In this document: positions 3,414 through 57,564 of the stretch, piece after piece
Position numbering within the stretch: the stretch's first letter is position 1
How the letters are laid out: each line of letters starts with the position of its first letter
Source of the DNA: a phage
Length of the DNA stretch: 64,000 nucleotides
Sequence record: OZ413487.1
Reading direction: 5' to 3' (one strand)
Program-made: the position numbers and the translations under genes
Notes under the pieces: model-generated
Told to the model about the DNA's origin: nothing
What the model saw: the letters and a program-made list of their open reading frames with translations, nothing else
Databases searched by the model: none

Positions 3414-5485
3414 TGGCAACAGCTATTTTTAAACCTTACCGTGATTACTCTACAATGGCTGCACGGTTTCATTACCGCACAGTTCAGGATACTGCAGTTC
3501 CTGGTAGGGATTATAATCATGTTGAGGGTGATGTAACTATCCCAATTGGGGCAACCAGTATTGAGATCCCAGTGGAAATTGTTGACAAATTACCCAACAG
3601 GTTGCCAAGAAGCTTCTTTATGGAGTTTTCATCAAAATCTCAAGGGGTGATGATTGGAACACAAAGGGCGAAATGTACAATAGTTTCAGATGAGAATCTT
3701 GACAGGATATCTTGGGATACTGTCGAGGAGAGAATGTTTCACCCAAGATATTGGGTTACATCTACCCAGCAGACTGAAAGCACCTGTATTGTTGCAGATA
3801 ATAACTGTTGTATTAACCGTTTAGTGTCAAGAACATATGGAGGTATGGCTGGGTGCATTTGGGAAACAGTTGACAAGTATGACCATTTCGGTATTGGGTT
3901 TGATGATCATTATGAGATGAGAAATACCAAGCTTTGGTTCAGAATGTCAATAACCAACGCCAGCAACTTCTCCACTCCTGAAAAGATGATTATGACTGTA
4001 GACCTTGTTGATGGCACAATCATCTATGTTCCTTTAGCTCAATATGCTGTCAGCATCTCAGAGGATAAGAATGTTGCAGAAATTCATATTGATTTCGAGG
4101 ACTGCGTCGGGATGGACCAGAACAACAATATGATGGGTGTTGATCCTCGACAGGTGAGAAGGATTTTAATACCGCTTATGCCTAAAGATTGGGTAAGCAA
4201 TAGCACAAACCCAAGAACGGAAAATGTAGAGTGTGAGTTGCGCCTAGATCTGCTTCAGCCAGACACAGGCTGGAAAATGATGCAACTTAACAATATTCAG
4301 GTGAAAGAACACGACGTTGGGATCTGCACAGCATATGACGATATGTGGAACGTGTCTCCTTTAAGGGTGTTGAACAATATCAAGCGTCTGGGCTATACCG
4401 GAACCATAAACCATTATGTTGGTATGAGTCATTATTATGACTACACATGGTCAGGAACTCAATGGTCTATAAACAGAACAGGAGCGCTAAACGCTGCAGC
4501 TTATAAATGGCATGATGATTTTATGTACAATGCCAAACGACATAACTTCGACGTTATGCAATCTGTAAGTTTTGAGCTTTTCAGCGATGCCTGCCCGTTG
4601 GAATGGACCCAAAGAGACTGGAACGATAACTACGCTAAAACAGGGTATACACCTTGTAGCTACCTCCTGTCTCCAACCATTGAAGAGGGTATGAATTTCC
4701 TTACTGCAGTATTTAAGAATTTTGCATCAGCCGCTATGAGAAACAACCTGCCAGTGATTATGCAGGTTGGTGAACCGTGGTGGTGGTACAATACCGATAC
4801 TCGTAGACCTTGTATTTATGATTACCCTACAAAGCAGGCGTTTTATGATGAGACAGGTGAGTATGCATTAGATATTGGGACTATTGACGATCCTAAAACT
4901 GGCGGTGTTTACGACAAGTATGTAGCATTTTGTCGTGGTAAGCTTGGCGCTCGTATTGCGGCTATTTCAAAGGCAATAAAGGCACACGCTGCATCAGCTC
5001 AGATGACAGCTCTACTGTTTTTCCCAACCATTATGGAAACCGAGCTTACGCAAAAGCTTAACCTTGCTGACCAATATAAAAAGGAAGCAGGTGCTCTTGA
5101 TTTCTTCTGCACCGAGTGCTACGATTGGGTGATGCAGGGAGGTATTGAAAAGGCAAAAGAGTCTGTAAACATACCTATCGTTAAGTTAGGTTGGCAACCG
5201 TCTGAAATACAATACCTTGCAGGGTTCGTTCCTAGTAAAGAGCTTGCTCCGGTATATGGTTACGACCCAACCAGGAATTACCAAGAATTTTTATGGAGAT
5301 GTATTTGCGGAAACATGGCAACTATAGAGTATAGATATCCTGAGGTAAAACAGTATGTGTGGGCATACCCGCAAGTAATGTCTGACAGCATCACTGTTAC
5401 CGCTAGAGATTCTACCGTGCTTCATATGGGGCAGGTTGCTCTGAAAGGGTATGTAGAAGATGTTGTCCCGCCAGACTTCTCATAA
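3413..5485 (+). CDS. putative tail or baseplate structural protein (690 aa)
   Basis: Long ORF with start overlapping the upstream stop (ATGA), inside the fiber/baseplate operon. No recognisable catalytic motif. Confidence 0.6.
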   Translation: MATAIFKPYRDYSTMAARFHYRTVQDTAVPGRDYNHVEGDVTIPIGATSIEIPVEIVDKLPNRLPRSFFMEFSSKSQGVMIGTQRAKCTIVSDENLDRISWDTVEERMFHPRYWVTSTQQTESTCIVADNNCCINRLVSRTYGGMAGCIWETVDKYDHFGIGFDDHYEMRNTKLWFRMSITNASNFSTPEKMIMTVDLVDGTIIYVPLAQYAVSISEDKNVAEIHIDFEDCVGMDQNNNMMGVDPRQVRRILIPLMPKDWVSNSTNPRTENVECELRLDLLQPDTGWKMMQLNNIQVKEHDVGICTAYDDMWNVSPLRVLNNIKRLGYTGTINHYVGMSHYYDYTWSGTQWSINRTGALNAAAYKWHDDFMYNAKRHNFDVMQSVSFELFSDACPLEWTQRDWNDNYAKTGYTPCSYLLSPTIEEGMNFLTAVFKNFASAAMRNNLPVIMQVGEPWWWYNTDTRRPCIYDYPTKQAFYDETGEYALDIGTIDDPKTGGVYDKYVAFCRGKLGARIAAISKAIKAHAASAQMTALLFFPTIMETELTQKLNLADQYKKEAGALDFFCTECYDWVMQGGIEKAKESVNIPIVKLGWQPSEIQYLAGFVPSKELAPVYGYDPTRNYQEFLWRCICGNMATIEYRYPEVKQYVWAYPQVMSDSITVTARDSTVLHMGQVALKGYVEDVVPPDFS

Positions 5486-19551: not shown

Positions 19552-19997
19552 AACAGATATAGCTCCTTATGAAAGTGGTCTTTTAATTTCTCACTGAGAA
19601 ACTTCTTGATACCTTCCTCTAAAGTGTTTTCGATGTAGTCCAGCTTAACTGCTTCGATGGACATATCATAGATTGCCAGCTCTAAGCTGTCAAGTCCCAT
19701 CATAGCATGAACCATAAGATTTTCATCTTCAGATACATTCAGGGGACTTCCTATAACATCTGGAGGCAGAATAGTTTCCCAATTATTCTGGGTGGTAGTT
19801 CTCCCGCCATCTACTTTACGGCGCAGTTCGAATGTGTTCTTAGTGTAGAACACTTCATAAGAAACGATACGACTGTCACTCTCATAATAAACGAAGTTCA
19901 GGTAGGAGCCTAGCCGCAGTCGGCAAACTTCCACCCCAAACCATTGTTTCTTATAAGAATTCAGGCTAATGCTGTCGCATTCACGTTTGCTCAACAC
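19548..19997 (-). CDS. hypothetical protein
   Basis: 149-aa ORF overlapping the downstream start by 4 nt. Confidence 0.5.
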   Translation of the reverse strand: MLSKRECDSISLNSYKKQWFGVEVCRLRLGSYLNFVYYESDSRIVSYEVFYTKNTFELRRKVDGGRTTTQNNWETILPPDVIGSPLNVSEDENLMVHAMMGLDSLELAIYDMSIEAVKLDYIENTLEEGIKKFLSEKLKDHFHKELYLL

Positions 19998-20013
19998 GGC
20001 TATCTCCTTTTTG

Positions 20014-20247
20014 TTAATCTTCGTAAATCAGGATTTCTGCTTTAGGTTTTCGTGCTTTCAGATCCAGCTCTATCCAATGCACCATGGCTGTTTCAAGAAA
20101 AACAGCCTGGATGCATCCGTCCTCAGCGTGCCCTACCAACATAACAAGATCTTCACCTTCGTCATCTGCATCACGAACATACAGAATCTCTCCAGATTCA
20201 AAGTCTTTCACAACCTGATTGCTGGATAATTTACGAATTTTTGCCAT
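20014..20247 (-). CDS. small acidic protein
   Basis: 77 aa, acidic (DADDEGED). Confidence 0.5.
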   Translation of the reverse strand: MAKIRKLSSNQVVKDFESGEILYVRDADDEGEDLVMLVGHAEDGCIQAVFLETAMVHWIELDLKARKPKAEILIYED

Positions 20248-20248
20248 A

Positions 20249-20512
20249 TCAGAAACCCTCTAAAAAGCTCTTGTAGAAAACAATCTCAGTATCCACACCA
20301 GTCACAATCTTGTCGTTCCTGATTTCATCAGTAAGATAGGTGTCAAAACGCAGAACCTGTGTGGTATTGTCGCACATCCACTCAGCTGTGACCATGGCGA
20401 AAATCTTAGCATCCTCATTATCTGGTGTAAATGTTACCACCTCACCACATTTAAATTTTTCGATAGGTTGCGTGTTAGCTTTCGGTTCTGCAATAGTGAT
20501 TTTCGTGGTCAT
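20249..20512 (-). CDS. hypothetical protein
   Basis: 87-aa ORF. Confidence 0.5.
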   Translation of the reverse strand: MTTKITIAEPKANTQPIEKFKCGEVVTFTPDNEDAKIFAMVTAEWMCDNTTQVLRFDTYLTDEIRNDKIVTGVDTEIVFYKSFLEGF

Positions 20513-34466: not shown

Positions 34467-36890
34467 ATGAGCATGTGGTCGTTCGACTTTGAGTCATCCG
34501 GTTTGCTGGAAGACCCAGATCTTTATTATCACTGCGGCCTGTTTAAAGAGCTGAATAAGAACCGTTTTATGCTGTTCCTTCCTCTAAATGACCGCACACA
34601 CTACTCCGAGGAGGATATAGAAAAGGCTAAGAACTTCATTCTGGCAAAGAAAACTCTTTATAAAGATTTTGAAGTTCGCATAGCAGATTTTTCAGAGTTG
34701 GAAGGTTGGCTTACAGGAAATTCTGACTGGTCACCAACAGCTTTGAACTGCCATAACTGCTACAGTTATGACTTTATGCTGATGGAAAGATTATCTGGTA
34801 TTCATTTTGATATGTTCCGTGATCCTAAATGTATGGGGACTATCAACGATCACCAGGTTAACCTGTTTGATACGTTGGCGATGAGCCGAATCTTGTGGCC
34901 TGATCGCCCTTTACCAAAAGGTTGTCCGGACTCTGTATTCAACCCGGTTACTAAGAAAATGCAGCCTGTTGGTCCTCACGGCCTTATGGCATGGGGCTAC
35001 GCCCTTGGTAACCAGAAAGTTCAAATTGATGACTGGCGCGATCTTCCGTTGTGGAAGTATGTGGATCGTGTATTCGAGGACGTTATCATCCAGGAGCTGC
35101 TCTGGAAAGAGCTGGTAGCGGAATCAAAAGGTGTATTCTACGGCAAATCTGACATGCAGAACTTTATGTACGATCCGGCCAAAGAGAAGCCGAAAGGGTT
35201 CAAGAAGATCACCTGGAAGAACGCATTACGTCGAGGCATGCTGCAGCACTTCCTGATGGAGCTGCAGGCCCGTCAGGGTGTATACTTCGACATAGATGGA
35301 GCTATTGCTTTACGTGACCGTTGCGATGCGTGGATGAAAGAAATCGCTGATCGTGTTGAACCACAACTACCTTTAAAAGAGCTGTCAATGTCTCAGCGGC
35401 CCAAGTTCCCTGAAAAGCCGTTTAACCAAGACGGGACAATCTCTAATAATGGTTGGAAATGGTTAAAAGATAAGCTTGGCTATCCTGTAGACATGAGTGC
35501 TTTAGAGTTCAAAGCCCTGCCTAAGCGAGCATTTACCTCTACAGGAGATGTCAGCAAGATGGGGATAAAATGGTGTGAAGAGATGGGCTGCAAAGACCCC
35601 GATAAGATGGCTGATTTCTTGAGAGGCTATATTAAGGGCACCTCCACACCACAACCCTTACCTAAAGAGCTGATGGATCAGGCAATAAGTGATCTGCAGC
35701 AGAAGCGAATGCCTGACTGCAAGATACCTATGAAAATCAGCAATCAGGACGACATCAAGCGATACCTAATCAGTGCTGGTTGGCTCCCAACAATGTGGAG
35801 AACTAAAGATGTAACTAAAGACAGCAAGAAGAAAGCTTTACCTGATGCAGATGTTGATGCACGAGTATATGCATATATGGACGAGCTTTTGGAGTCAGAG
35901 TATTGTGACCTAATTATCAACTTCTGGAACAAAACTGATGCTAAGTTCCAGACAACCGTGCACAAGTTCCGAAGCTTTCCTAACTCCGAAAGGATTAAAA
36001 AGGAAGTATTCGGGAAAATACGTAGAAAAGCCAGGGCACTTATTACTTCTCCGCAACTGAAAGATACGTTTGGACACCTATGCCCAAATCTTGAAAAATT
36101 GAACGGAGAGATGGCTAAAGATATCGTCTTGTGGTTATCATTGCGAAACCGCAGATCGGTCCTTGATCCAATCAAGGAGGATAAGGTTGATACTGGTCTT
36201 CTTAATCACCCACGTTTGAAGATTGACCATAAGCTTCCTGCTAAAAGCTCTGGATTAACAAACACTTCCAGACAGAAACACAGTATTTGTGCAAACATGC
36301 CTAAACCATCTCCTAAAGTAGTTATGGGTAAAGAGATGCGTAGTCTGTGGGGTGTTCCTCCAGGATACTTTGAGATCGGTATTGACGGGTCCAACTTAGA
36401 GCAGCTCATCGGGGCTTGGGGTGCCTTTGAGTTCGACAACGGCTTGTATTATGATGTTGTAAGTAACGGAGACGCACACCAAAACAATGCTGAGGCATAT
36501 ACAAAAGTGGCAGGCAGAGAGGTGTCCCGTAACGACGGTAAACCTATCACGTATGGGGTTATGTACGGGGCACAAAAAGATAAAGTTGCAGATATGCTGG
36601 ACATCTCCCCAGAGTTGGGACAAAGGGTAATCGATGCACTCTGGGATGCCAACCCAGGTCTTAAGGGGCGCAAAGAGGATCTGGAGAAATTCTGGGAAGC
36701 AACAGGTAAGAAGTTTATCTACTCTTTTGATGGTCATGCTATCTGGACCCGATCTAAACACTCTTTACTTAATGCATACCAACAAAATGGCGGTGCATCG
36801 TTGTGTGACTTAGTTGGAATACTCATGCACCACCAGATGGTGAAGCGTGGGTGGTACGATGAAGGTGTTCGTCGTATTATTTATTACCAT
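34467..36890 (+). CDS. family A DNA polymerase (T7 gp5-like), exon 1 (ends at the His codon of the HDE motif)
   Basis: 3'-5' exo motifs (FDFESSGL, YSYDFM), HGLMAWGYALG (compare T7 HALEAWGYRLG), polymerase motif A (GIDGSNLEQL), motif B (RNDGKPITYGVMYG) and QQNGGASLCDL. The reading frame hits a stop two codons after ...IIYYH. Confidence 0.8.
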
Positions 36891-37166
36891 AAATAACATT
36901 GTGGCTTCATAGAGTAATCTATGTCGAATAACCTCTTTAACTGCGGGAAGCCTAAACCTTATGGCAAGGTAATCCGCAACGAAGCGCTCAAAAGAGCGAA
37001 CGCTCAGAGGCCATTCCGAAAGGAAGTAGACCAGCAAGTGCGGTCGAAATGGGAGGATTCCTGTGGTTGCTTATCATAGGAATATGAGATGGTCCGATCC
37101 TACGTGAAAACGTATGGCTATGCACGTAATGGTGCGGGGTAGCTTAACGACCTACCTGAACTATTG
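36891..37166 (+). other. intervening sequence in the DNA polymerase gene; candidate group I self-splicing intron
   Basis: 276 nt with no credible ORF. The 5' exon ends in U (CAU), the insert ends in G (...CUAUUG), and a GUGG near its 5' end can pair with exon CCAU to form P1 with a U-G wobble. Joining the flanks restores IIYYH-DEYQLQV. Confidence 0.6.
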
Positions 37167-37520
37167 GATGAGTACCAACTTCAAGTGCCTGACACACCGA
37201 AGTATAAGACTGTGTACACCTTCGACACAATTGAAGAACTGGAAGCATTTAAGGCAGAGCAGGAAGCCAAACTTCATGTGTTCGACGGTCATAAGTACAA
37301 AAAGGCACGCAAGGATGAGGACGGAAACGAAGTGGTTGACAGAGACGGAAACACGGTGTACGATCCTATCCTGAACGATGACGGAAAGCTTGAACTTATC
37401 TGGAGCCCTGTGGGTGAAATGGTGGTACATTGCTTCTGGCAAGCTTCTAAAATGATGGGAGTCCCGTTCCAGATCACAGGTGAATACTTGTGTGGTCGTA
37501 ATTGGGGTGATTGTCACTAA
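37167..37520 (+). CDS. family A DNA polymerase, exon 2 (C-terminal segment)
   Basis: Begins with DE, completing HDE. Ends ...ITGEYLCGRNWGDCH, like the T7 gp5 C-terminus (...GKMGPNWAICH). No RBS or ATG of its own. Confidence 0.7.
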   Translation, partial: DEYQLQVPDTPKYKTVYTFDTIEELEAFKAEQEAKLHVFDGHKYKKARKDEDGNEVVDRDGNTVYDPILNDDGKLELIWSPVGEMVVHCFWQASKMMGVPFQITGEYLCGRNWGDCH

Positions 37521-40333: not shown

Positions 40334-40699
40334 ATGGAACAAATGAACGATCAAGCGTCGGTTGCGATGAACGAGCAAGAACAACCTCAAGAATTTTTCT
40401 TAGGGTTAAGTAAAGATCAAGTGTCTCTTCTGCTAGTGCTTTCTTCTTTCATGGGAAGACTTCAGGAGCTTACACAACAGCCAGAGGCTGAACAATTATT
40501 CCAGGCTCTGCGTGAAGAAGAAAAATATCGTCGTTTGGACTATGCCTTAGGTTGGGTAGCTCAACAACGAGATATGCTGATGGCCCTCTCTGGGACCACA
40601 AGTTTTGCAATGGGCCTGTTGGCTCAAGTTCAGGACAAATTAATTCAAGCAGGGTTTGCACACACGGCAAACACTAACGAAGAACAAGGAGATAAATAA
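40334..40699 (+). CDS. hypothetical protein
   Basis: 121-aa ORF with RBS GGAGA. Confidence 0.5.
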   Translation: MEQMNDQASVAMNEQEQPQEFFLGLSKDQVSLLLVLSSFMGRLQELTQQPEAEQLFQALREEEKYRRLDYALGWVAQQRDMLMALSGTTSFAMGLLAQVQDKLIQAGFAHTANTNEEQGDK

Positions 40700-41925
40700 T
40701 GAGCGTTATTCAACAATTCGCTAACCCGATGAATCCGCGTGAAACTGTTTTACTAGCTCACGGCATGATTAAACGTGTCAGCATCAAGCCTATCAAAGGT
40801 GCTGATCCTACAACAGGTATTAAAACCACTGTGTGGCAAGGTAAGAAAATTGAATCCAGCCACACCATCTCTTTACTGATTTCTGAACTGGATTCCTCTG
40901 ATAACCTACTTCAAGGTGGTGAAGAAGTTTGGATCAGTATGGGCGATAAGCTGCTTAAACCAGGTCATCAAGACTCTGTCTCTGTTAAAATTGATGACAA
41001 GTGGGAAACCGTAACGCCAGGATGGATCGTAAATATCCCTTTGAAGGCAAACGAGCATAACGGTAAGACCTACTACAAAGGCTCACTGGCTAAGATGGTT
41101 AAGCTGGGTGCAGGAGAGGCTCCAGCAGCGACTCAGCAGCAAAAACAGCAACAAGGTGCACAATCACAAGGCCAGAAGCAGAAACCTCAGCAGAATGCCA
41201 ATCAGGACGTTTTACGCATCTATGGTGATGTGACTCAGATTGTTGGCAACGTGGTTACTGTTAATGACCACAAGATTGGCGAAGGTGCTATGGTTGTCAC
41301 TGATGAGCAGCTTAAAGACCTGGTGGTAGGTGGTCGTGTTGCAGCCATTGTTGACAAAGACACCGGAAACATTATCAGTGGCTTCAAGGCCTATCCTCCT
41401 AAGGCAGAGAACGGCACTCAAGGCTCTGGTGGCAAGCGTAAATCCTCTTACGACCCTATCGGTGTGGAGACGGGACATAGCATCAATGCGTTGCAGATCA
41501 TCCTGGATCGCGGGTTTAAGGTGGACGACCCACTAGGCGTGGCTAAAACACTGCACGTAGTCACCATTGAGCTTAAGAAAGAGTATGCTCAAGCCACCAA
41601 CCGAACTGAAGATGAAGTAGGTGCCAGTGTCGGCAATGCGGTGTTGAACGCTTGTCGCCGTATTGACAAGAAAACGAAAGTTGATGATTTTGCAGCGGCA
41701 ATTACTGCAGAAGCAAAAGATGTCTTGACTAATCTGGCTGAGCCGTTGTACGATTGGATCAAGAACGGTGCTGGGTCCACTGACCATCAAGAACCTCAAG
41801 CTGCCAAACAGGAAGCAGCTCCACAGCAAAACACTGTAGACGCTCCTCCTGTAAATGACGAGGAAGATGACCCGATGGATCAGAATCCAGCACAGTATGA
41901 GTTCGATGACTCGATCCCTTTCTGA
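40699..41925 (+). CDS. single-stranded DNA-binding protein-like (acidic C-terminal tail)
   Basis: C-terminus ...EFDDSIPF resembles the SSB acidic tail (E. coli SSB ends DDDIPF). Q-rich low-complexity linker. Adjacent to the replication genes. Confidence 0.5.
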   Translation: MSVIQQFANPMNPRETVLLAHGMIKRVSIKPIKGADPTTGIKTTVWQGKKIESSHTISLLISELDSSDNLLQGGEEVWISMGDKLLKPGHQDSVSVKIDDKWETVTPGWIVNIPLKANEHNGKTYYKGSLAKMVKLGAGEAPAATQQQKQQQGAQSQGQKQKPQQNANQDVLRIYGDVTQIVGNVVTVNDHKIGEGAMVVTDEQLKDLVVGGRVAAIVDKDTGNIISGFKAYPPKAENGTQGSGGKRKSSYDPIGVETGHSINALQIILDRGFKVDDPLGVAKTLHVVTIELKKEYAQATNRTEDEVGASVGNAVLNACRRIDKKTKVDDFAAAITAEAKDVLTNLAEPLYDWIKNGAGSTDHQEPQAAKQEAAPQQNTVDAPPVNDEEDDPMDQNPAQYEFDDSIPF

Positions 41926-41933
41926 GGTCAGTT

Positions 41934-42512
41934 ATGAAATGCAAACGTTGTGGAGAGGACAAGGAGGCCTCCGACTTCTACACCAGTAACAAATCAACGT
42001 GCAAAGAGTGTTGCAAGAAGGCCAGCAGGGAGGCTGACCAATTTGCTAAAGACTCTTCAGAAAAAGGTGTAATACGTGTGTTGTACAAGGCTCAAAAGTG
42101 CAACAGCAAGCAAAGAGGTCACCCTCCTCCGACTTACACCAAAAAAGAGTTTAAGGAGTGGCTATACCTTAACGGTTACAAAGAGTTGTATGATCAGTGG
42201 GTAGCCAGCGGATACGACAAAAGGAAAAAGCCTTCTTGTGACAGGATAGATGATTTCAAAGGGTACTCTTTTGATAATATCCGTTTAACGACTTGGGGAG
42301 AAAATAAAGACAAGCAGACAGAGGATATTCTGTTACATAGAAGCACCAGCGGTAGACGGTGCAAAAATGTAAGGAGGTTGGACATGAATGGTAACGTTCT
42401 TAAAGAATGGGTATCTCACAACTCTTGTAGCAGAGAAACCGGAATATATATTGGTTACTACATTCATGAAAAAATTCCAGCTCCAGATGGATACTTATAC
42501 GAATACTTTTAA
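41934..42512 (+). CDS. HNH-family endonuclease-like protein with N-terminal zinc ribbon
   Basis: CKRCG ... CKECC zinc ribbon and a DRIDDFKGYSFDNIRLTTWGEN core resembling HNH_3-type homing endonucleases, with the His position substituted. Confidence 0.4.
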   Translation: MKCKRCGEDKEASDFYTSNKSTCKECCKKASREADQFAKDSSEKGVIRVLYKAQKCNSKQRGHPPPTYTKKEFKEWLYLNGYKELYDQWVASGYDKRKKPSCDRIDDFKGYSFDNIRLTTWGENKDKQTEDILLHRSTSGRRCKNVRRLDMNGNVLKEWVSHNSCSRETGIYIGYYIHEKIPAPDGYLYEYF

Positions 42513-42526
42513 CACATAACTAACAT

Positions 42527-42557
42527 AGCCCTGCCCGAAAGGGTGGGGCATTTTTGT
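42527..42557 (+). terminator. rho-independent terminator (same hairpin as 31529)
   Basis: CCCTGCCC-GAAA-GGGTGGGG hairpin plus TTTTTG. Confidence 0.75.
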
Positions 42558-42574
42558 ATAAGGAGATCTGAAAA

Positions 42575-42991
42575 ATGACATTAGAAGATATCATTGTTAA
42601 ACCTGAGAACTATGACCAATACAACCTGTCAACTCAATCTGTAGACCTTGGATGCGCCACAGTTAGTGCGTGGCTGGTTAATGGAAAAGAGCTGGACAAG
42701 TGCTTAGAAGCTCACATGTCTGTTAACAAGTTTCTGGATGAAAATACTCACTGGCTTGAGGGTGCTGGAGTATATGCTTCATGGTTGGAGAGCATGGGCT
42801 TTGACTATCAATCTGATGAAGGGTGGTGGAGCTATCTGGCTATCTGTCCAGAAACACTGCAATGCTTCATGAAATACTCTGAAGATCTTGAGTACCGAGC
42901 GGTGGTTGATAGTGCTATTGCCCGTTATAGCCGTAAACCTTTTTCCCATGACATTAAAACTGTGGAAGAATTTGTTGAAGTTTTCTGTTGA
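42575..42991 (+). CDS. hypothetical protein
   Basis: 138-aa ORF with RBS AAGGAGA. Confidence 0.55.
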   Translation: MTLEDIIVKPENYDQYNLSTQSVDLGCATVSAWLVNGKELDKCLEAHMSVNKFLDENTHWLEGAGVYASWLESMGFDYQSDEGWWSYLAICPETLQCFMKYSEDLEYRAVVDSAIARYSRKPFSHDIKTVEEFVEVFC

Positions 42992-43087
42992 CACAGGTTG
43001 AAAGGTGTGCAATTATAACTTCATAAAACGGGAGGACGCGATGAACGAAGAAAACTGGGATGTATAACTAACAGGAGACCACTGCCC

Positions 43088-43285
43088 ATGATTTATCGAA
43101 TCCGTGTAAGAGAAGATGCACCAGGCTGTTACTTTGACTGGCGTGGGTGGTGGTTTCTCCACCCGATGGATGGACTCACAGATAGAATGCTGGATGCTGC
43201 CCTTTATACAGATACCGACATAGAATATAATCTTTATCTGAAGGACGGTATAGATAACGGCCTATTTGAAGCAATTCCTGTGTAA
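43088..43285 (+). CDS. hypothetical protein
   Basis: 65-aa ORF with RBS AGGAGA; a TTGACA promoter-like element lies at about 42990. Confidence 0.45.
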   Translation: MIYRIRVREDAPGCYFDWRGWWFLHPMDGLTDRMLDAALYTDTDIEYNLYLKDGIDNGLFEAIPV

Positions 43286-43353
43286 GAGACTGCGATAGCC
43301 ATGTTTTATGATCTTCCTGTAGCACCACCACCTATTGAACCCGGAGAACCAAG

Positions 43354-43773
43354 ATGATCTATGAAATGCCAAAATTGATCCGTGACGATGCCCAAAACCA
43401 CACCATTATTATGGGTAAACGCATGAATATCCTTTGCCGTAACGATTTCTGTGGTGGAGAATACGTTGCAGACTACTTCGGTGAGAATGGTAAACACCCT
43501 GTTCAGTTCTTCCTTGACCATGAGGATAACATTATCTGGGAGTTTGAAACTGAAGATATCCGCAACCTCTTCATCTTCCTCGGTGTCAAGGTTAAGGCCA
43601 ATTTCGCAGAAGGTGAGTGCGACGATTGTGGATTTTATGAGGTGACAGACTTTTATCTCCCGAGTGGCAAGAACCTTTACTATGAGAGTCACTTCGGAAA
43701 CACCAACATGCCTCAAAGCTGGGAAGAATTTTTCAGTATCGTAGAAGAGGAGCTGGCATACCGTGATTATTGA
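43354..43773 (+). CDS. hypothetical protein
   Basis: 139-aa ORF with RBS GGAGAA. Confidence 0.5.
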   Translation: MIYEMPKLIRDDAQNHTIIMGKRMNILCRNDFCGGEYVADYFGENGKHPVQFFLDHEDNIIWEFETEDIRNLFIFLGVKVKANFAEGECDDCGFYEVTDFYLPSGKNLYYESHFGNTNMPQSWEEFFSIVEEELAYRDY

Positions 43774-44221
43774 TACTGTAAAGGGAGATTTAATCTCCCT
43801 TTTTAAGAGCGGTGCTGGTCACCTGATCCACGGTTGTAACTGCTTCCACACAATGGGTAAAGGTATAGCAAAACAGATTGCCCGTGAGTTCCCTCAAGCA
43901 TTGGCAGCCGACAAAGAGACGAGACACGGTTGCCTAAGTAAACTGGGTGCGTTCTCCCGATGGGAGCACTTATCTCCGATAGGTATTGTCTACGGAATCA
44001 ATCTGTATACTCAGTTCTACCCAGGGCCTAATGCTGAATATTTCTCAATCCTGAAAGGCTTTGAGCTAGTCAATGAGGTATTCAAGGGATCGACTTTACC
44101 ATTCTACATCCCTAAGATCGGGTGCGGCATAGGCGGTTTGAAGTGGGAGCACGTAGAGGACGTTATTAACCTCGCCACTTTTGATATAGATATTATCGTG
44201 GTGGAGTACAAAGAGTGTTGA
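43763..44221 (+). CDS. macro-domain protein (ADP-ribose binding / processing)
   Basis: LIHGCNCFHTMGKGIAKQIAREFP matches the macro-domain N-terminal signature and IGCGIGGLKWEHV the C-terminal G-x-G-I-x-G signature. GTG start. Confidence 0.55.
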   Translation: MIIDTVKGDLISLFKSGAGHLIHGCNCFHTMGKGIAKQIAREFPQALAADKETRHGCLSKLGAFSRWEHLSPIGIVYGINLYTQFYPGPNAEYFSILKGFELVNEVFKGSTLPFYIPKIGCGIGGLKWEHVEDVINLATFDIDIIVVEYKEC

Positions 44222-44246
44222 CAGCTGGCTTTTGAGATGGTATAGT
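44218..44246 (+). promoter_or_regulatory. sigma70-type promoter (TTGACA-N17-TATAGT)
   Basis: Hexamers with a 17-nt spacer, upstream of the 44275 gene. Confidence 0.55.
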
Positions 44247-44274
44247 CACCACAACGATTGAGAGAGGGAGCACT

Positions 44275-44475
44275 ATGGAGACTAAAATCTTAATTCTGGC
44301 TGTGATAGATACGACCGAAGGGGCCGTGTTCGAATCTGCAGGAGGGTATTTCTACCTGCCCTACGGAAAAAGAACTTCCGAACCGAGTAAAGATTCAATC
44401 CTTAAAGTGTTCCCTTGTGCTTTCTGGCTGGAGATTCTGGTAGAAGATTGCAGAGGATTGGGGAGAGAATTATGA
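44275..44475 (+). CDS. hypothetical protein
   Basis: 66-aa ORF with RBS GAGGGAG. Confidence 0.5.
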   Translation: METKILILAVIDTTEGAVFESAGGYFYLPYGKRTSEPSKDSILKVFPCAFWLEILVEDCRGLGREL

Positions 44476-44666
44476 GAAACAAGAAAGAGCTTTACTCTGG
44501 CGAGTGGATCAACGATCAACAGGTCGGAGAGGTAACCTGCTTCCGATGTTTTACCAGGTACAATCTTAAAACTGCACCAAAAAGTGTTCCAAAGACTGAT
44601 GGTTATTATATAAAAGAACCTCATTGCCCAAAATGTAAATGCCGATTGTACTGGAGCAATCTGTAA
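44472..44666 (+). CDS. small zinc-ribbon protein
   Basis: ATG at 44472 after GGGGAGAG. CFRC ... CPKCKC Cys pairs. Confidence 0.5.
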   Translation: MRNKKELYSGEWINDQQVGEVTCFRCFTRYNLKTAPKSVPKTDGYYIKEPHCPKCKCRLYWSNL

Positions 44667-44670
44667 GAGG

Positions 44671-44698
44671 TTGACATCTGAAAACTGCAGTGTATAAT
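44671..44698 (+). promoter_or_regulatory. sigma70-type promoter (TTGACA-N16-TATAAT)
   Basis: Consensus hexamers with a TG immediately upstream of the -10. Confidence 0.6.
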
Positions 44699-44729
44699 AT
44701 ACGCATAAACTAACAGAGAGCGATGTATT

Positions 44730-44921
44730 ATGGTAATTTTTAACCGGGATGGTATCATAGTTAGACAGCACCCGTTCCTTGAATACTATCAAATTGAGCA
44801 ATGGTGCTACGGGGATTGCAGTCACTCCTATGGGCAAAGTTGGGGATACCGTACAGTTTTTGAATCCACAGACCTTGACAAAGTAAGACAGAAAGTTTTA
44901 GAACTTATTAACAACAAGTGA
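44730..44921 (+). CDS. hypothetical protein
   Basis: 63-aa ORF. Confidence 0.45.
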   Translation: MVIFNRDGIIVRQHPFLEYYQIEQWCYGDCSHSYGQSWGYRTVFESTDLDKVRQKVLELINNK

Positions 44922-44928
44922 GTATGAT

Positions 44929-45261
44929 ATGGTAACATTAGAAAGACGTAAAGCTATTGCCGCCACACTGGCAGACATCTTTTGGGATTGTAATTTAAAA
45001 TCTACCCGAAATTGTGGCGCATCTGTAGATGTATTATTCCCACGGCCTACTATTGTTGCAATGGGCAACCTTCTTGATGTGGTATATGGAGCATGGGACA
45101 AGGAAGGTGGATTCTATATCTGGCAACCTGACTACGGGACTTGGAAAGAGGTTAGTGGTTCTACGGACTTCACTCCTGCAGTGGCTAAAATGGATGGCTG
45201 GAAAATCTATGTCGGTAACGACATGGAACTGAAAGGCGAAATTGTTTACTGGTTACCTTAA
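44929..45261 (+). CDS. hypothetical protein
   Basis: 110-aa ORF. Confidence 0.5.
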   Translation: MVTLERRKAIAATLADIFWDCNLKSTRNCGASVDVLFPRPTIVAMGNLLDVVYGAWDKEGGFYIWQPDYGTWKEVSGSTDFTPAVAKMDGWKIYVGNDMELKGEIVYWLP

Positions 45262-55859: not shown

Positions 55860-56135
55860 TGTCATGTTGTGTCAGTTAGGTCACATTATGTCAGACAAGT
55901 TTTTCTCCTCTTTGTCAAGTGCTGCATGAAAAATTTACAAGCTTGTATGGTAGCATTTTTGCGGCCCTGTTTACATTCAGTAATGTATGTATAATCCTTG
56001 TTGTGTGGGCGTTTAGACGTCTAGACGGTTGGAAGTCCACAGGTCAATATCTAATCTATCGGCTGCTAACTATATCCCACACAAATAGTAAGAAATATGA
56101 TTGTTATATGCGTAAACTGTAACTCATGTTATCAA

Positions 56136-56505
56136 TCCCTGTATGGATCGCCAGTGGTGCGCATAATAGGTATTATGTTAAATTGCCCGTAATGATAACA
56201 GTTCTCACAATGATAGGTATTCTCATTCATCCACACAAAATAGGTTGCAAATGTTGTGCCACTGTGTGAACGGCCTGGCCTATTAATTTCTCTCACTGCC
56301 TCGATATTTGAGAATTGTTATCCCTGTATGGATCGCCAGTGGTGCGCATAATAGGTATTATGTTAAATTGCCCGTAATGATAACAGTTCTCACAATGATA
56401 GGTATTCTCATTCATCCACACAAAATAGGTTGCAAATGTTGTGCCACTGTGTGAACGGCCTGGCCTATTAATTTCTCTCACTGCCTCGATATTTGAGAAT
56501 TGTTA
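56136..56505. repeat. perfect tandem direct repeat, 2 x 185 bp
   Basis: Copy 1 (56136-56320) and copy 2 (56321-56505) appear identical base for base when read by eye. Confidence 0.8.
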
Positions 56506-57564
56506 TAAGAATGAGAAGTATTCCCATTCCGTCCGCCTGGCAGCACTCCTGTAGGTCCTGCAAGGACTCTAGCTGAAAGCTAGACCCTTCGGGCCTCCCT
56601 GTAGGTCAGGTCAAAATCGTGGTAGAATTGGGCCTGTTCAGATATTTCTGGCTGACTCTTCAGGTCTGTGTGGGAAAAGCCAACCTCTCCGGCGGGGCAG
56701 GGGGTCATGACGGGAAAATTGCAGGTCAATTAAAAAATTTACGTGGTGTATGAAGCGCTCTTCAGGTAAGGCATGTATTATGGGATGAAACCCTCTTCAG
56801 GCAATGATATTTGTGGGTGTGATATTTGCTGGAAAGCCAGATATGACGGGACTCCCGGCGGGGATGGGGTAGTACAGACAGGGAAAATATGAGAATGTAG
56901 TTGGGGAAATTGATCAGACAGGTAGAGTATGGAATATGTTACAAGTATGTTAAATATGGAGGTTGAATATCTGTAGGATTTGTGTGTAAAATCAAAGACT
57001 TAAGGGGTGTTGTGGTATTTTCTATAAATAATTCAAGTTTAATAGGCAATATTTGTCTCTATCCGCTTTGTGTGGTAAACAGATTCAGATTAGATTGGTT
57101 TACAAGTGTATACATAATATACAAATTAAAGATACAAGAAACCCCCCTCCCCCTTCGGCTACCATTCACCTTTTCCTCTGACTGGTACTTAAACACTTAT
57201 TCAGACTCTTCAGGTTATCACCCATATATCATATGGCAGTGACTGGTGTCCTCCGGCCCCTCTTTCGTCACCCGTCCGCTTCGCCATGCTAATGCCATAG
57301 CCAATGGTTCGGTTGTTCACTCTGTTCACTCAGGTGTATCTCCATACCCCTTCAAACCGAAGAGAACAGAAAACCCGAATTACTCGGTAAAAGAAAAGAG
57401 AAGAACTTAATTTTATCAGGATAGGCAAGAATGTCAAGGCATGACTGCTCACTAAACAAGCAAACAGTCATGTGTGGAAGGTAAGTGATTGTGGTGGTGG
57501 GAAATTTAGTTGAAAGATGTGTTATAGGTGCTCCCAGCACTTTAGCCGGGTAGCTAATTGTGTG

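What the first reader, a model, noticed from the sequence alone, without database searches (positions are those of the whole stretch)
43763..44221. Phage-encoded macro-domain protein
The 152-aa product carries both macro-domain signatures (H-G-C-N-C...G-K-G-I-A and G-C-G-I-G-G). Macro domains bind or hydrolyse ADP-ribose adducts. A stand-alone macro domain in a lytic phage is a plausible counter-measure against host ADP-ribosylating defences (DarT-like DNA ADP-ribosylation or NAD-derived signalling), or a regulator of phage-directed ADP-ribosylation.
Basis: partly seen in the sequence, partly recalled or inferred. Interest (0 to 1): 0.6.

Follow-up and report, generated by a model that had tools for sequence, protein, structure and literature searches.

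The report
Phage orphan macrodomain, likely anti-DarT2
This rV5-like E. coli phage carries a small stand-alone macro-domain enzyme from the same family as phage T4's Tk.4/AdfM, which most likely strips ADP-ribose off phage DNA to defeat the bacterial DarTG2 defence; it is a correct but fairly ordinary finding.

Summary
ORF 43763..44221 (+) encodes a 152-aa protein carrying the stated motifs. It passes the Pfam Macro threshold and folds with high confidence (pLDDT 96.5) into a macro domain of the TARG1/DarG/Poa1p/BT1257 (ALC1-like) class. The window is a Vequintavirus (rV5-like) phage.

The protein is a full-length homologue of T4 Tk.4 (39% identity, E 5e-41). It is 69% identical to the Tk.4 copy at the vs-tk.4-tk position in a Krischvirus. 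A 2025 preprint showed T4 tk.4 is needed to resist DarTG2 and named it AdfM; PhiKZ gp104 (also AdfM) removes thymidine-linked ADP-ribose from ssDNA.

One detail differs from DarG. The catalytic Lys (DarG K80, TARG1 K84, PhiKZ K78) is a near-invariant Gln here (Q84), as in T4 Tk.4. The same holds for SCO6735, a Gln-type macrodomain shown biochemically to cleave thymidine-ADP-ribose.

The gene has no DarT-binding domain, no neighbouring transferase, is under purifying selection, and its Bas54 counterpart is dispensable on E. coli K-12.

Best reading: an orphan antitoxin-like DNA de-ADP-ribosylase that counters DarT2. This is a new member of a known kind, untested in this phage. Interest is low to moderate.

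The parts
43763..44221 (+). Coding sequence of the 152-aa stand-alone macro-domain protein (Tk.4/AdfM-type), stop codon included
43745..43752 (+). Shine-Dalgarno-like AAGAGGAG, ending 10 nt before the GTG start
   Evidence: Read directly from the sequence. The start position is supported by conservation in HdK5 and FFH2, by an ATG at the same position in Skers, and by alignment to T4 Tk.4 from residue 1
43829..43843 (+). Codons for H23-G24-C25-N26-C27. N26 is the equivalent of DarG N22, PhiKZ AdfM N23 and SCO6735 N27
   Evidence: Alignments A2 and the 120-homologue alignment: H23 119/120, G24 119/120, N26 119/120. The N-to-A or N-to-S mutants of PhiKZ AdfM and SCO6735 are inactive
43856..43870 (+). 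Codons for G32-K33-G34-I35-A36, the first glycine-rich ADP-ribose-binding loop. K33 aligns with SCO6735 K34 (DNA positioning) but is not conserved in the family
   Evidence: G34 119/120, A36 119/120; position 33 is A in 79, S in 18 and K in 11 of 120; SCO6735 K34E data
44000..44014 (+). Codons for N80-L-Y-T-Q84. Q84 occupies the position of the catalytic Lys of DarG (K80), TARG1 (K84) and PhiKZ AdfM (K78), and of SCO6735 Q85
   Evidence: HMMER alignments to 5m3i and TARG1; MAFFT alignment A2; Q84 in 116/120 homologues; SCO6735 Q85A is dead
44111..44137 (+). Codons for P117-K-I-G120-C-G122-I-G124-G125, the second (diphosphate-binding) glycine-rich loop. G124 sits where TARG1 has the catalytic D125
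   Evidence: G120 116/120, G122 113/120, G125 109/120; TARG1 has D at window position 124
43354..43773 (+). Upstream 139-aa ORF of unknown function whose stop overlaps the macro gene start by 11 nt (probably co-translated). This is context, not shown to be functionally linked
   Evidence: no Pfam hit; phrog_8157, unknown function; no similarity to Vs, the upstream neighbour of tk.4 in T4-like phages. The same overlap is seen in HdK5, FFH2, Bas50, Bas54 and Bas57
42528..42549 (+). Terminator-like hairpin (9 pairs, 7 G-C, then a T run) that probably ends the preceding transcription unit. The macro gene lies in the next unit, 42575..44221
   Evidence: Consensus scan only. A 'putative transcriptional terminator' is annotated at the same place in HdK5
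42988..43016 (+). Sigma-70-like promoter candidate (TTGACA-17-AATTAT, 10/12, TG) upstream of the macro gene. A second candidate lies at 43203-43231
   Evidence: Consensus scan only. The total number of hits is not above shuffles (20 against 14.5 +/- 4.5), so this is weak evidence

Best explanation
The gene encodes an orphan, antitoxin-like macro-domain ADP-ribosyl glycohydrolase of the T4 Tk.4/AdfM type. It is probably expressed from the early/middle small-gene region downstream of the replication genes. The proposed mechanism is as follows. The protein binds ADP-ribose attached by a host DarT2-type toxin to thymidine N3 in single-stranded phage DNA. It then hydrolyses the ribose-base bond, restoring replicable DNA and releasing free ADP-ribose, so the phage escapes DarTG2 abortive defence. 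Catalysis is expected to be of the Gln type described for SCO6735: N26 positions Q84, and Q84 positions the distal ribose and transition state for attack by water. It is not expected to be the Lys type of DarG, TARG1 and PhiKZ AdfM. Shown here: the ORF, the macro fold, class membership, homology to T4 Tk.4, residue conservation, purifying selection, and the absence of a DarT-binding domain or a partner transferase. Taken from the literature: the anti-DarTG2 phenotype of T4 tk.4, and thymidine-ADP-ribose hydrolysis by PhiKZ AdfM and SCO6735. Inferred only: that this Vequintavirus protein has the same substrate and the same biological role.
Against: No experiment exists for any Vequintavirus copy. 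The HIDEN-SEQ study used a Vequintavirus (Bas54) but reports no DarTG2 challenge of it. The T4 result is a preprint and is genetic only; enzymatic removal of ADP-ribose by T4 Tk.4 was proposed, not shown. The protein lacks the catalytic Lys of DarG and PhiKZ AdfM. It also differs from the one characterised Gln-type enzyme, SCO6735. It has G24 where SCO6735 has V25, and a short 9-residue loop after Q84 instead of the longer Lys-bearing mobile loop that aids DNA binding. Identity to PhiKZ AdfM is only about 20%. Macro domains of this class also act on protein Glu/Asp-ADPr, uracil-ADPr in RNA and small ADP-ribose esters, so substrate cannot be read from sequence alone (also stated in PMC9503650).
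Confidence: 0.6

Rival explanations
1. It is an active de-ADP-ribosylase whose relevant substrate is not DarT2-modified DNA but another macromolecular adduct made by a host defence or competitor toxin. Candidates are uracil-linked ADP-ribose on RNA, phosphate-end ADP-ribosylation of nucleic acids, or Glu/Asp-linked protein ADP-ribosylation.
For: TARG1-like macrodomains including SCO6735 and DarG also reverse uracil-ADPr on RNA. SCO6735 and TARG1 also de-modify proteins. The family differs from all biochemically characterised enzymes in its active-site details (G24, short loop).
Against: The only genetic phenotype known for a family member (T4 tk.4) is against DarTG2. No bacterial anti-phage system that makes U-ADPr or Glu-ADPr was found in the papers read. 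SCO6735 was inactive on guanosine-, 2'-OH- and 5'-phosphate-linked nucleic-acid ADPr in one panel.
Confidence: 0.15
2. It processes or sequesters small soluble ADP-ribose derivatives. These could be ADP-ribose-1''-phosphate (the origin of the 'phosphatase' annotation), O-acetyl-ADP-ribose, or TIR/Thoeris signals such as gcADPR or His-ADPR. It would thereby blunt NAD-derived immune signalling or toxic metabolites.
Confidence: 0.1
3. It neutralises DarT2 mainly by binding the toxin (stoichiometric inhibition) rather than by hydrolysis.
For: Catalytically dead SCO6735 Q85A, DarG K80A and TARG1 K84A all inhibit DarT in vitro, with SCO6735 the strongest.
Against: The near-invariant active-site residues (N26, Q84 and both Gly loops in 113-119 of 120 homologues) argue for selection on catalysis. 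The protein lacks the dedicated DarT-binding C-terminal domain of DarG. PhiKZ AdfM N23A loses function.
Confidence: 0.07
4. It is the eraser partner of a phage-encoded ADP-ribosyltransferase and tunes phage-directed ADP-ribosylation of host or phage proteins (an Alt/ModA/ModB-like system).
For: T4, which has Tk.4, also encodes Alt, ModA and ModB (general knowledge; the Bas37 ModA orthologue is mentioned). Sirtuin-Macro and ART-Macro pairs exist in some phages.
Against: No ART, Sir2 or related domain was found in 40 ORFs of the window, including all immediate neighbours. Neighbours belong to PHROGs of unknown function. The gene moves between phage lineages on its own, without its T4 neighbour vs. 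The rest of the genome outside the window was not scanned.
Confidence: 0.03

Closest known systems
T4 Tk.4 = AdfM (anti-DarT factor Macrodomain), bioRxiv 10.1101/2025.11.20.689424
   Same: Stand-alone phage macro domain of about 150 aa. Identity is 39% over the full length (E 5e-41) and both fall in phrog_335. They share the signature H-G-C-N-C ... N-L-Y-T-Q-F-x-P-G-P-N ... P-x-I-G-x-G-I-G, including Gln at the DarG catalytic-Lys position and the short loop. Both are dispensable on K-12.
   Different: The phage family differs (Vequintavirinae against Straboviridae), and so does the neighbourhood (no vs or tk). The window protein has K33 where T4 has S, and G125 where T4 has K. It has not been tested against DarTG2. 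A Krischvirus Tk.4 is much closer (69%) than T4's own copy.
PhiKZ gp104 = AdfM (Cell Rep 2026, PMC13309987)
   Same: Phage-encoded orphan DarG2-like macro domain in phrog_335. The Asn is conserved (N23 in PhiKZ, N26 here), and so are both Gly-rich loops.
   Different: Identity is only about 20% (E 8e-5). PhiKZ has the DarG-type catalytic Lys (K78) where the window protein has Q84. PhiKZ scores far better on the DarG model (4.4e-39 against 9.5e-14). PhiKZ AdfM is imported into the phage nucleus, which Vequintaviruses are not known to build.
DarG antitoxin macrodomain of DarTG2 (T. aquaticus 5M31/5M3E, M. tuberculosis 5M3I, T. africanus 7OMU)
   Different: There is no C-terminal DarT-binding domain and no adjacent darT. 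Catalytic K80 is replaced by Gln. The NCBIfam DarG score is far below the cutoff (48.8 against 250).
SCO6735 (S. coelicolor, 5E3B) and BT1257 (2FG1/2AFC): Gln-type ALC1-like macrodomains
   Different: Identity is about 25-27%. The window protein has G24 where SCO6735 has V25, the residue whose backbone is proposed to hold the catalytic water. It has a 9-residue loop after the Gln instead of the roughly 15-residue mobile loop bearing K89 and K94. It has 'YTQ' instead of 'IGQ'. SCO6735 and BT1257 are bacterial chromosomal genes, not phage genes.
Human TARG1/OARD1 (4J5R/4J5S)
   Different: The K84/D125 catalytic dyad is absent (Q84/G124 here). TARG1 has Ser where N26 sits.
Yeast Poa1p ADP-ribose-1''-phosphate phosphatase (6LFQ-6LFU), the source of the 'phosphatase' annotation
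   Different: Poa1p has Ser at the Q84 position and a longer C-terminal half. Sequence similarity is confined mostly to residues 5-47. No RNA-splicing or repair context exists here.

Membership tests
Macro domain superfamily (Pfam PF01661) | Profile match above the curated gathering score | tested here: met
   28.3 bits against a cutoff of 22, E 1.8e-6
Macro domain superfamily (Pfam PF01661) | Three-layer alpha/beta/alpha macro fold with two Gly-rich ADP-ribose-binding loops | tested here: met
ALC1-like / TARG1-DarG-Poa1p-SCO6735 class of macrodomains | Closer in structure and profile to TARG1, DarG, Poa1p and BT1257 than to MacroD, viral X-domain, PARG or macroH2A classes | tested here: met
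AdfM, T4 Tk.4 type (anti-DarT factor Macrodomain) | Phage-encoded, stand-alone macrodomain homologous over its full length to T4 Tk.4 | tested here: met
   39% identity, E 5e-41, residues 1-150 against 1-152; same PHROG; 69% identity to the syntenic Tk.4 of Krischvirus Skers
AdfM, T4 Tk.4 type (anti-DarT factor Macrodomain) | Shares the family's conserved active-site signature (H-G-[CA]-N-C; N-x-Y-T-Q; P-x-I-G-x-G) | tested here: met
   All positions are present in the window protein and in 113-119 of 120 homologues
AdfM, T4 Tk.4 type (anti-DarT factor Macrodomain) | Required for, or sufficient for, phage resistance to DarTG2 | not testable with these tools
   Shown genetically for T4 only. 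No DarTG2 challenge of a Vequintavirus was found in the papers searched
AdfM, PhiKZ gp104 type / DarG2-like | DarG-type catalytic pair Asn + Lys (Taq DarG N22/K80; PhiKZ N23/K78) | tested here: not met
   The Asn is present (N26), but the Lys position is Gln84 in the window protein and in 116/120 homologues
AdfM, PhiKZ gp104 type / DarG2-like | Hydrolyses thymidine-linked ADP-ribose from ssDNA in vitro | not testable with these tools
   Shown for PhiKZ AdfM and SCO6735, not for this protein or for T4 Tk.4
DarG antitoxin of the DarTG2 toxin-antitoxin system | Two-domain protein: N-terminal macrodomain plus C-terminal DarT-binding domain (about 330 aa) | tested here: not met
   The protein is 152 aa and matches only positions 3-141 of the 329-position PADLOC model. 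NCBIfam DarG equivalog scores 48.8 bits against a cutoff of 250
DarG antitoxin of the DarTG2 toxin-antitoxin system | Encoded next to a darT ADP-ribosyltransferase gene | tested here: not met
   No Pfam domain at all in the six flanking ORFs except a phage zinc-binding domain. All flanking PHROGs are of unknown function or endonuclease VII
TARG1/OARD1 | Catalytic Lys84/Asp125 dyad | tested here: not met
   Q84 and G124 occupy these columns
SCO6735/BT1257 subclass (Gln-type) | Gln at the catalytic-Lys position, held by a conserved Asn | tested here: met
   Q84 and N26 align with Q85 and N27
SCO6735/BT1257 subclass (Gln-type) | Val/Ile at position 25 and an extended, Lys-bearing mobile loop after the Gln (described as characteristic of this subclass, PMC9411070) | tested here: not met
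   G24 in 119/120 homologues. The loop from Q84 to Y92 is 9 residues in the window protein and in 83/120 homologues, against about 15 in SCO6735 and BT1257, and it has no Lys
Poa1p-type ADP-ribose-1''-phosphate phosphatase ('phosphatase' in RefSeq and PHROG annotation) | Phosphatase activity on ADP-ribose-1''-phosphate | not testable with these tools
   Only fold and N-terminal motif similarity is available. Poa1p has Ser at the Q84 column

The most novel reading that the evidence does not exclude
The Tk.4-type phage macrodomains, including this one, may form a third mechanistic type of nucleic-acid de-ADP-ribosylase. They combine an invariant Gln in place of the catalytic Lys, an invariant Gly where SCO6735 uses Val25, and a short DarG-length loop. 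If so, their substrate range could differ from both DarG and SCO6735. In Vequintaviruses the protein might then disarm a host ADP-ribosylating defence other than, or in addition to, DarTG2, for example uracil/RNA-directed or divergent DarT-like toxins. 'AdfM' would then cover two convergently recruited, mechanistically distinct enzymes.
Probability: 0.2. Interest if true: 0.45.

Novelty: new member of a known kind. Interest (0 to 1): 0.22.

Why it matters
The practical consequence is modest. rV5-like (Vequintavirinae) phages are broad-host-range E. coli phages, and this result predicts that they carry a ready-made counter to DarTG2, a thymidine-ADP-ribosylating abortive-infection system. That prediction can be tested with existing BASEL phages and DarTG2 plasmids.

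There is also a small mechanistic point that the papers read here do not spell out. The name AdfM has been given to two phage proteins that differ at the key catalytic position: Lys in PhiKZ gp104, as in DarG, and Gln in T4 Tk.4 and in this protein, as in SCO6735. [quoted passage not shown]

The 69% identity to a Krischvirus Tk.4, set against unrelated flanking genes, shows that this counter-defence gene moves between unrelated myovirus lineages as a single-gene cassette.

Tried and rejected
1. I looked for a partner transferase or other NAD/ADP-ribose genes. Pfam scans of 40 window ORFs found none: ten ORFs flanking the macro gene (40334-45261), ten downstream, ten upstream, and ten more covering the replication genes and two outlying ORFs. 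Only a phage zinc-binding domain, a cell-wall hydrolase, helicases, a family A polymerase and weak coiled-coil noise appeared. The genome outside the window was not scanned.

2. I tested whether the upstream, translationally coupled ORF is a Vs homologue, which would mean the vs-tk.4 pair moved together. There was no similarity, and its PHROG has unknown function.

3. I read the HdK5 annotation for 50 kb more of the genome, hoping for curated ADP-ribose-related names. It was uninformative, being mostly 'hypothetical protein'.

4. I checked a bacterial chromosomal homologue (Pelagimonas, P0065) for a DarT neighbour, as a clue to origin. It is a solitary gene among housekeeping genes.

5. A plasmid search returned 29 records, mostly distant megaplasmid copies, plus one phage-like 137-kb E. 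coli 'plasmid' at 82% identity. It adds nothing functional.

6. I checked papers on Thoeris II and CmdTAC for phage macrodomain counter-defence. The only macrodomain mentions were the host ThsA effector and coronavirus references.

7. I wanted to measure active-site geometry (N26-Q84 distance) in the model, but the model coordinates are not exposed to the scripting environment.

8. I did not use the 1.84-billion-protein representative search or the metagenome and genome locus scans, because the phage-database tblastn (2,717 records) already showed how widespread the family is.

9. I guessed that phage DrSchubert was Bas54, but it is Bas50. The Bas54 orthologue was therefore identified by position, length and the 11-nt overlap only, not by sequence.

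Full report
**1. Observation**

- It starts with GTG. A Shine-Dalgarno-like AAGAGGAG (43745-43752) ends 10 nt upstream.
- The start overlaps the stop of the preceding ORF (43354..43773) by 11 nt, which suggests translational coupling.
- The start is credible. Two relatives keep the GTG, a more distant homologue has ATG at the same codon, and T4 Tk.4 aligns from residue 1.
- The motifs are present: H23-G-C-N-C27, G32-K-G-I-A36 and G120-C-G-I-G-G125.
- Pfam Macro is matched above its gathering score (28.3 against 22 bits). phrog_335, labelled 'phosphatase', is matched at 3.9e-60.

**2. What the window is**

The 3 kb around the gene are 92-97% identical to more than 100 Vequintavirus (rV5-like) E. 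coli phages.

- The closest are MaxTheCat (BASEL Bas57) and A6-1.
- In MaxTheCat the gene is bas57_0089, 'hypothetical protein'.
- In HdK5 it is already annotated 'macro domain protein', and in RefSeq FFH2 and APECc02 it is 'phosphatase'.

The gene sits in a long co-directional run of small genes of unknown function, downstream of the helicase/primase/DNA-polymerase block.

- A terminator-like hairpin at 42528-42549 and several sigma-70-like promoter matches delimit a probable unit, 42575..44221. These are consensus matches only.

**3. Fold and class**

An AlphaFold2 model built on 68 homologues is very confident (pLDDT 96.5, pTM 0.91).

- Foldseek against the PDB puts TARG1 first (E 2.6e-10, TM 0.78-0.85). 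Poa1p and the DarG macrodomains of T. aquaticus and M. tuberculosis follow.
- A profile of the family searched against PDB sequences returns the same class at convincing E-values: BT1257 3.6e-19, SCO6735 2.6e-17, TARG1 7e-17 and Mtb DarG 1.5e-16. One further chain, 2dx6 (TTHA0132), appears at E 1.9e-4.

The protein belongs to the ALC1-like (TARG1/DarG/Poa1p/SCO6735) class.

**4. Family and literature**

A tblastn search finds homologues in 2,717 phage records. In T4-like phages these sit beside vs, at the position of gene tk.4.

- T4 Tk.4 itself is 39% identical over the full length (E 5e-41).
- The Tk.4 of the Krischvirus Skers, in the canonical vs-tk.4-...-tk arrangement, is 69% identical to the window protein.
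- The window protein, T4 Tk.4 and PhiKZ gp104 all fall in phrog_335. All three hit the macro part of the PADLOC DarG model.

The literature bears directly on function.

- A November 2025 preprint (10.1101/2025.11.20.689424) found tk.4 as the single T4 gene depleted in a transposon library on a DarTG2 host. It showed that a clean knockout is sensitised, and named the gene adfM. Enzymatic reversal was proposed, not measured.
- A 2026 Cell Reports paper (PMC13309987) independently named PhiKZ gp104 AdfM. It showed that the protein removes thymidine-linked ADP-ribose from a ssDNA oligonucleotide (the N23A mutant is inactive), neutralises DarT2 toxicity, and is needed for PhiKZ growth on DarTG2 strains.
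- Stand-alone Macro domains were already known to be very common in phages, at 41% of myoviruses (PMC9503650).

**5. Active site**

Alignments to DarG, TARG1 and PhiKZ gp104 show that the conserved Asn is present. DarG N22, PhiKZ N23 and SCO6735 N27 correspond to N26 here. The catalytic Lys is not present: DarG K80, TARG1 K84 and PhiKZ K78 correspond to Gln84 here.

- I checked the register using the 58-residue Asn-to-Lys spacing in the Mtb DarG fragment, which matches N22/K80 of the T. aquaticus enzyme.
- T4 Tk.4 has the same 'NLYTQF' motif.
- Across 120 database homologues, H23, G24 and N26 are each present in 119, and Q84 in 116.
- TARG1's second catalytic residue, D125, is G124 here.

Gln at this position is the hallmark of SCO6735 and BT1257.

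- SCO6735 has been shown to cleave thymidine-linked ADP-ribose from ssDNA more efficiently than DarG or TARG1, and to rescue cells from DarT.
- It loses all activity as Q85A and nearly all as N27S. The proposed mechanism is water-mediated, with Gln85 positioning the distal ribose (PMC9411070).

The phage family is nevertheless not a plain SCO6735 relative.

- It has an invariant Gly where SCO6735 has Val25.
- It has a short 9-residue loop after the Gln, the DarG/TARG1 length. SCO6735 instead has a longer, Lys-bearing mobile loop that helps it bind DNA.

So the name AdfM currently covers a Lys-type enzyme (PhiKZ) and a Gln-type enzyme (T4 and this phage).

**6. Orphan status and selection**

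- The protein is only the macrodomain. It covers positions 3-141 of a 329-position DarG model, and scores 48.8 bits against the 250-bit NCBIfam DarG cutoff.
- None of 40 ORFs scanned in the window carries an ART, NADAR, Nudix, Sir2 or TIR domain.
- The neighbours belong to PHROGs of unknown function or to endonuclease VII.
- The upstream coupled ORF is unrelated to Vs.
- dN/dS against HdK5 and FFH2 is 0.09-0.18.
- In the HIDEN-SEQ data, bas54_0092 took insertions at 31 of 31 TA sites and was called non-essential on E. coli K-12. I identified this gene as the Bas54 counterpart by its position, its 459-nt length and the 11-nt overlap.
- T4 tk.4 behaves the same way, with 45 of 46 sites hit. This fits a conditionally useful counter-defence gene.

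**7. Explanation and rivals**

The best explanation (confidence about 0.6) is an orphan antitoxin-like DNA ADP-ribosyl glycohydrolase. It would remove DarT2-installed ADP-ribose from thymidines in single-stranded phage DNA, using a Gln-type active site.

- Shown here: the ORF, the fold, the class, homology to T4 Tk.4, residue conservation, purifying selection and orphan status.
- Taken from the literature: the DarTG2 phenotype of T4 tk.4, and T-ADPr hydrolysis by PhiKZ AdfM and SCO6735.
- Inferred: the substrate and biological role of this particular protein.

The rivals are:

- Another macromolecular substrate, such as U-ADPr RNA or protein-ADPr; about 0.15.
- Small-molecule ADP-ribose derivatives, including the Poa1p-like 'phosphatase' idea and Thoeris signals; about 0.10.
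- Stoichiometric DarT inhibition; about 0.07.
- Eraser for a phage-encoded transferase; about 0.03, since no transferase was found nearby.

No paper I found tests a Vequintavirus against DarTG2. One study notes that three Vequintavirinae (Bas60-62) carry a NADAR AdfN against DarTG1, so anti-DarT genes are not foreign to this group.

**8. Novelty and score**

However, the kind of element is already known, is widespread, and has recently been characterised in T4 and PhiKZ. Near-identical copies are already annotated as macro-domain proteins.

I rate it a new member of a known kind, with interest about 0.22. The residual novelty is twofold. First, there is the Gln-for-Lys active site shared with T4 AdfM, a point the papers I read do not make. 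Second, there is evidence for single-gene exchange between Straboviridae and Vequintavirinae.

Noticed in passing
window 36881-37116 (+), with ORFs 34467..36896 and 37164..37520: A group I intron (Rfam RF00028, 64.7 bits, E 4e-14) splits the family A DNA polymerase gene into an 809-aa part and a 118-aa part. There is no room for a homing-endonuclease ORF in the roughly 270-nt gap. FFH2 has the same split but with an HNH endonuclease between the parts, and HdK5 has an uninterrupted 925-aa polymerase. So three intron states exist among close relatives.
   Followed up: partly
window 56135-56506, within the gene-poor stretch about 54.1-58.0 kb: A perfect 185-bp tandem duplication (2.0 copies, 100% identity) lies in a region with no ORF of 110 aa or more. 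The HIDEN-SEQ preprint reports an intergenic region of about 2 kb in Vequintavirus Bas54 that tolerates no transposon insertions and separates divergently transcribed genes. This may be the same locus, possibly an origin or regulatory region.
   Followed up: no
window 40699..41925 (+), 408 aa: A large protein of unknown function (no Pfam hit; phrog_4477 at 4e-173). Its positional counterpart in Bas54 (bas54_0087) is classed as essential in the transposon screen, with 8 of 57 TA sites hit. It is an essential Vequintavirus gene with no annotation.
   Followed up: partly
window 44218-44246 and 44671-44698 (+): Two near-perfect sigma-70 promoter matches lie directly downstream of the macro gene: TTGACA-17-TATAGT with a TG extension (11/12), and a perfect TTGACA-16-TATAAT (12/12). 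This suggests that the small-gene array is transcribed by host RNA polymerase from many strong early promoters.
   Followed up: no
L006 (Escherichia phage Skers, Krischvirus) 4001-4456 against window 43763-44221: The Tk.4 copy of a T4-like Krischvirus is 69% identical to the Vequintavirus protein, while T4's own Tk.4 is only 39% identical, and the flanking genes are unrelated. This points to horizontal exchange of the macro gene alone between two myovirus families.
   Followed up: partly
window 41934..42512 (+), 192 aa: An endonuclease VII/HNH-like ORF (phrog_1035 at 2.7e-32, no Pfam hit) is present here and in some relatives ('putative homing endonuclease' or 'endonuclease VII') but absent from others such as MaxTheCat. 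It is a mobile element two genes upstream of the macro unit.
   Followed up: no
window 44415..44666 (+), 83 aa: This small ORF carries the Pfam Phage_zn_bind_2 domain (PF23903, 1.6e-22). It overlaps the alternative ORF 44275..44475, which matches phrog_15268 at 1e-42. Relatives annotate two short genes here with differing boundaries, so the gene calls in this stretch need care.
   Followed up: no
BFVD hit A0A481YV05 (Marseillevirus LCMAC103) and tblastn hit H62 (Vibrio phage Bennett, MN958086.1 106239-106652): The best viral structural match (TMq 0.93, 39% identity) is a macro domain fused to a protein named 'SNF2 subfamily' in a giant virus, an ALC1-like architecture. Separately, a Vibrio phage homologue lies next to a ribose-phosphate pyrophosphokinase gene, hinting at an NAD/ADP-ribose salvage context in that phage.
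   Followed up: no
plasmid record CP057073.1 (E. coli, 137,565 bp) 19853-20308: A record deposited as an E. coli plasmid carries an 82%-identical copy of the gene and has the size of a Vequintavirus genome. It is probably a phage genome, or a phage-plasmid, filed as a plasmid.
   Followed up: no
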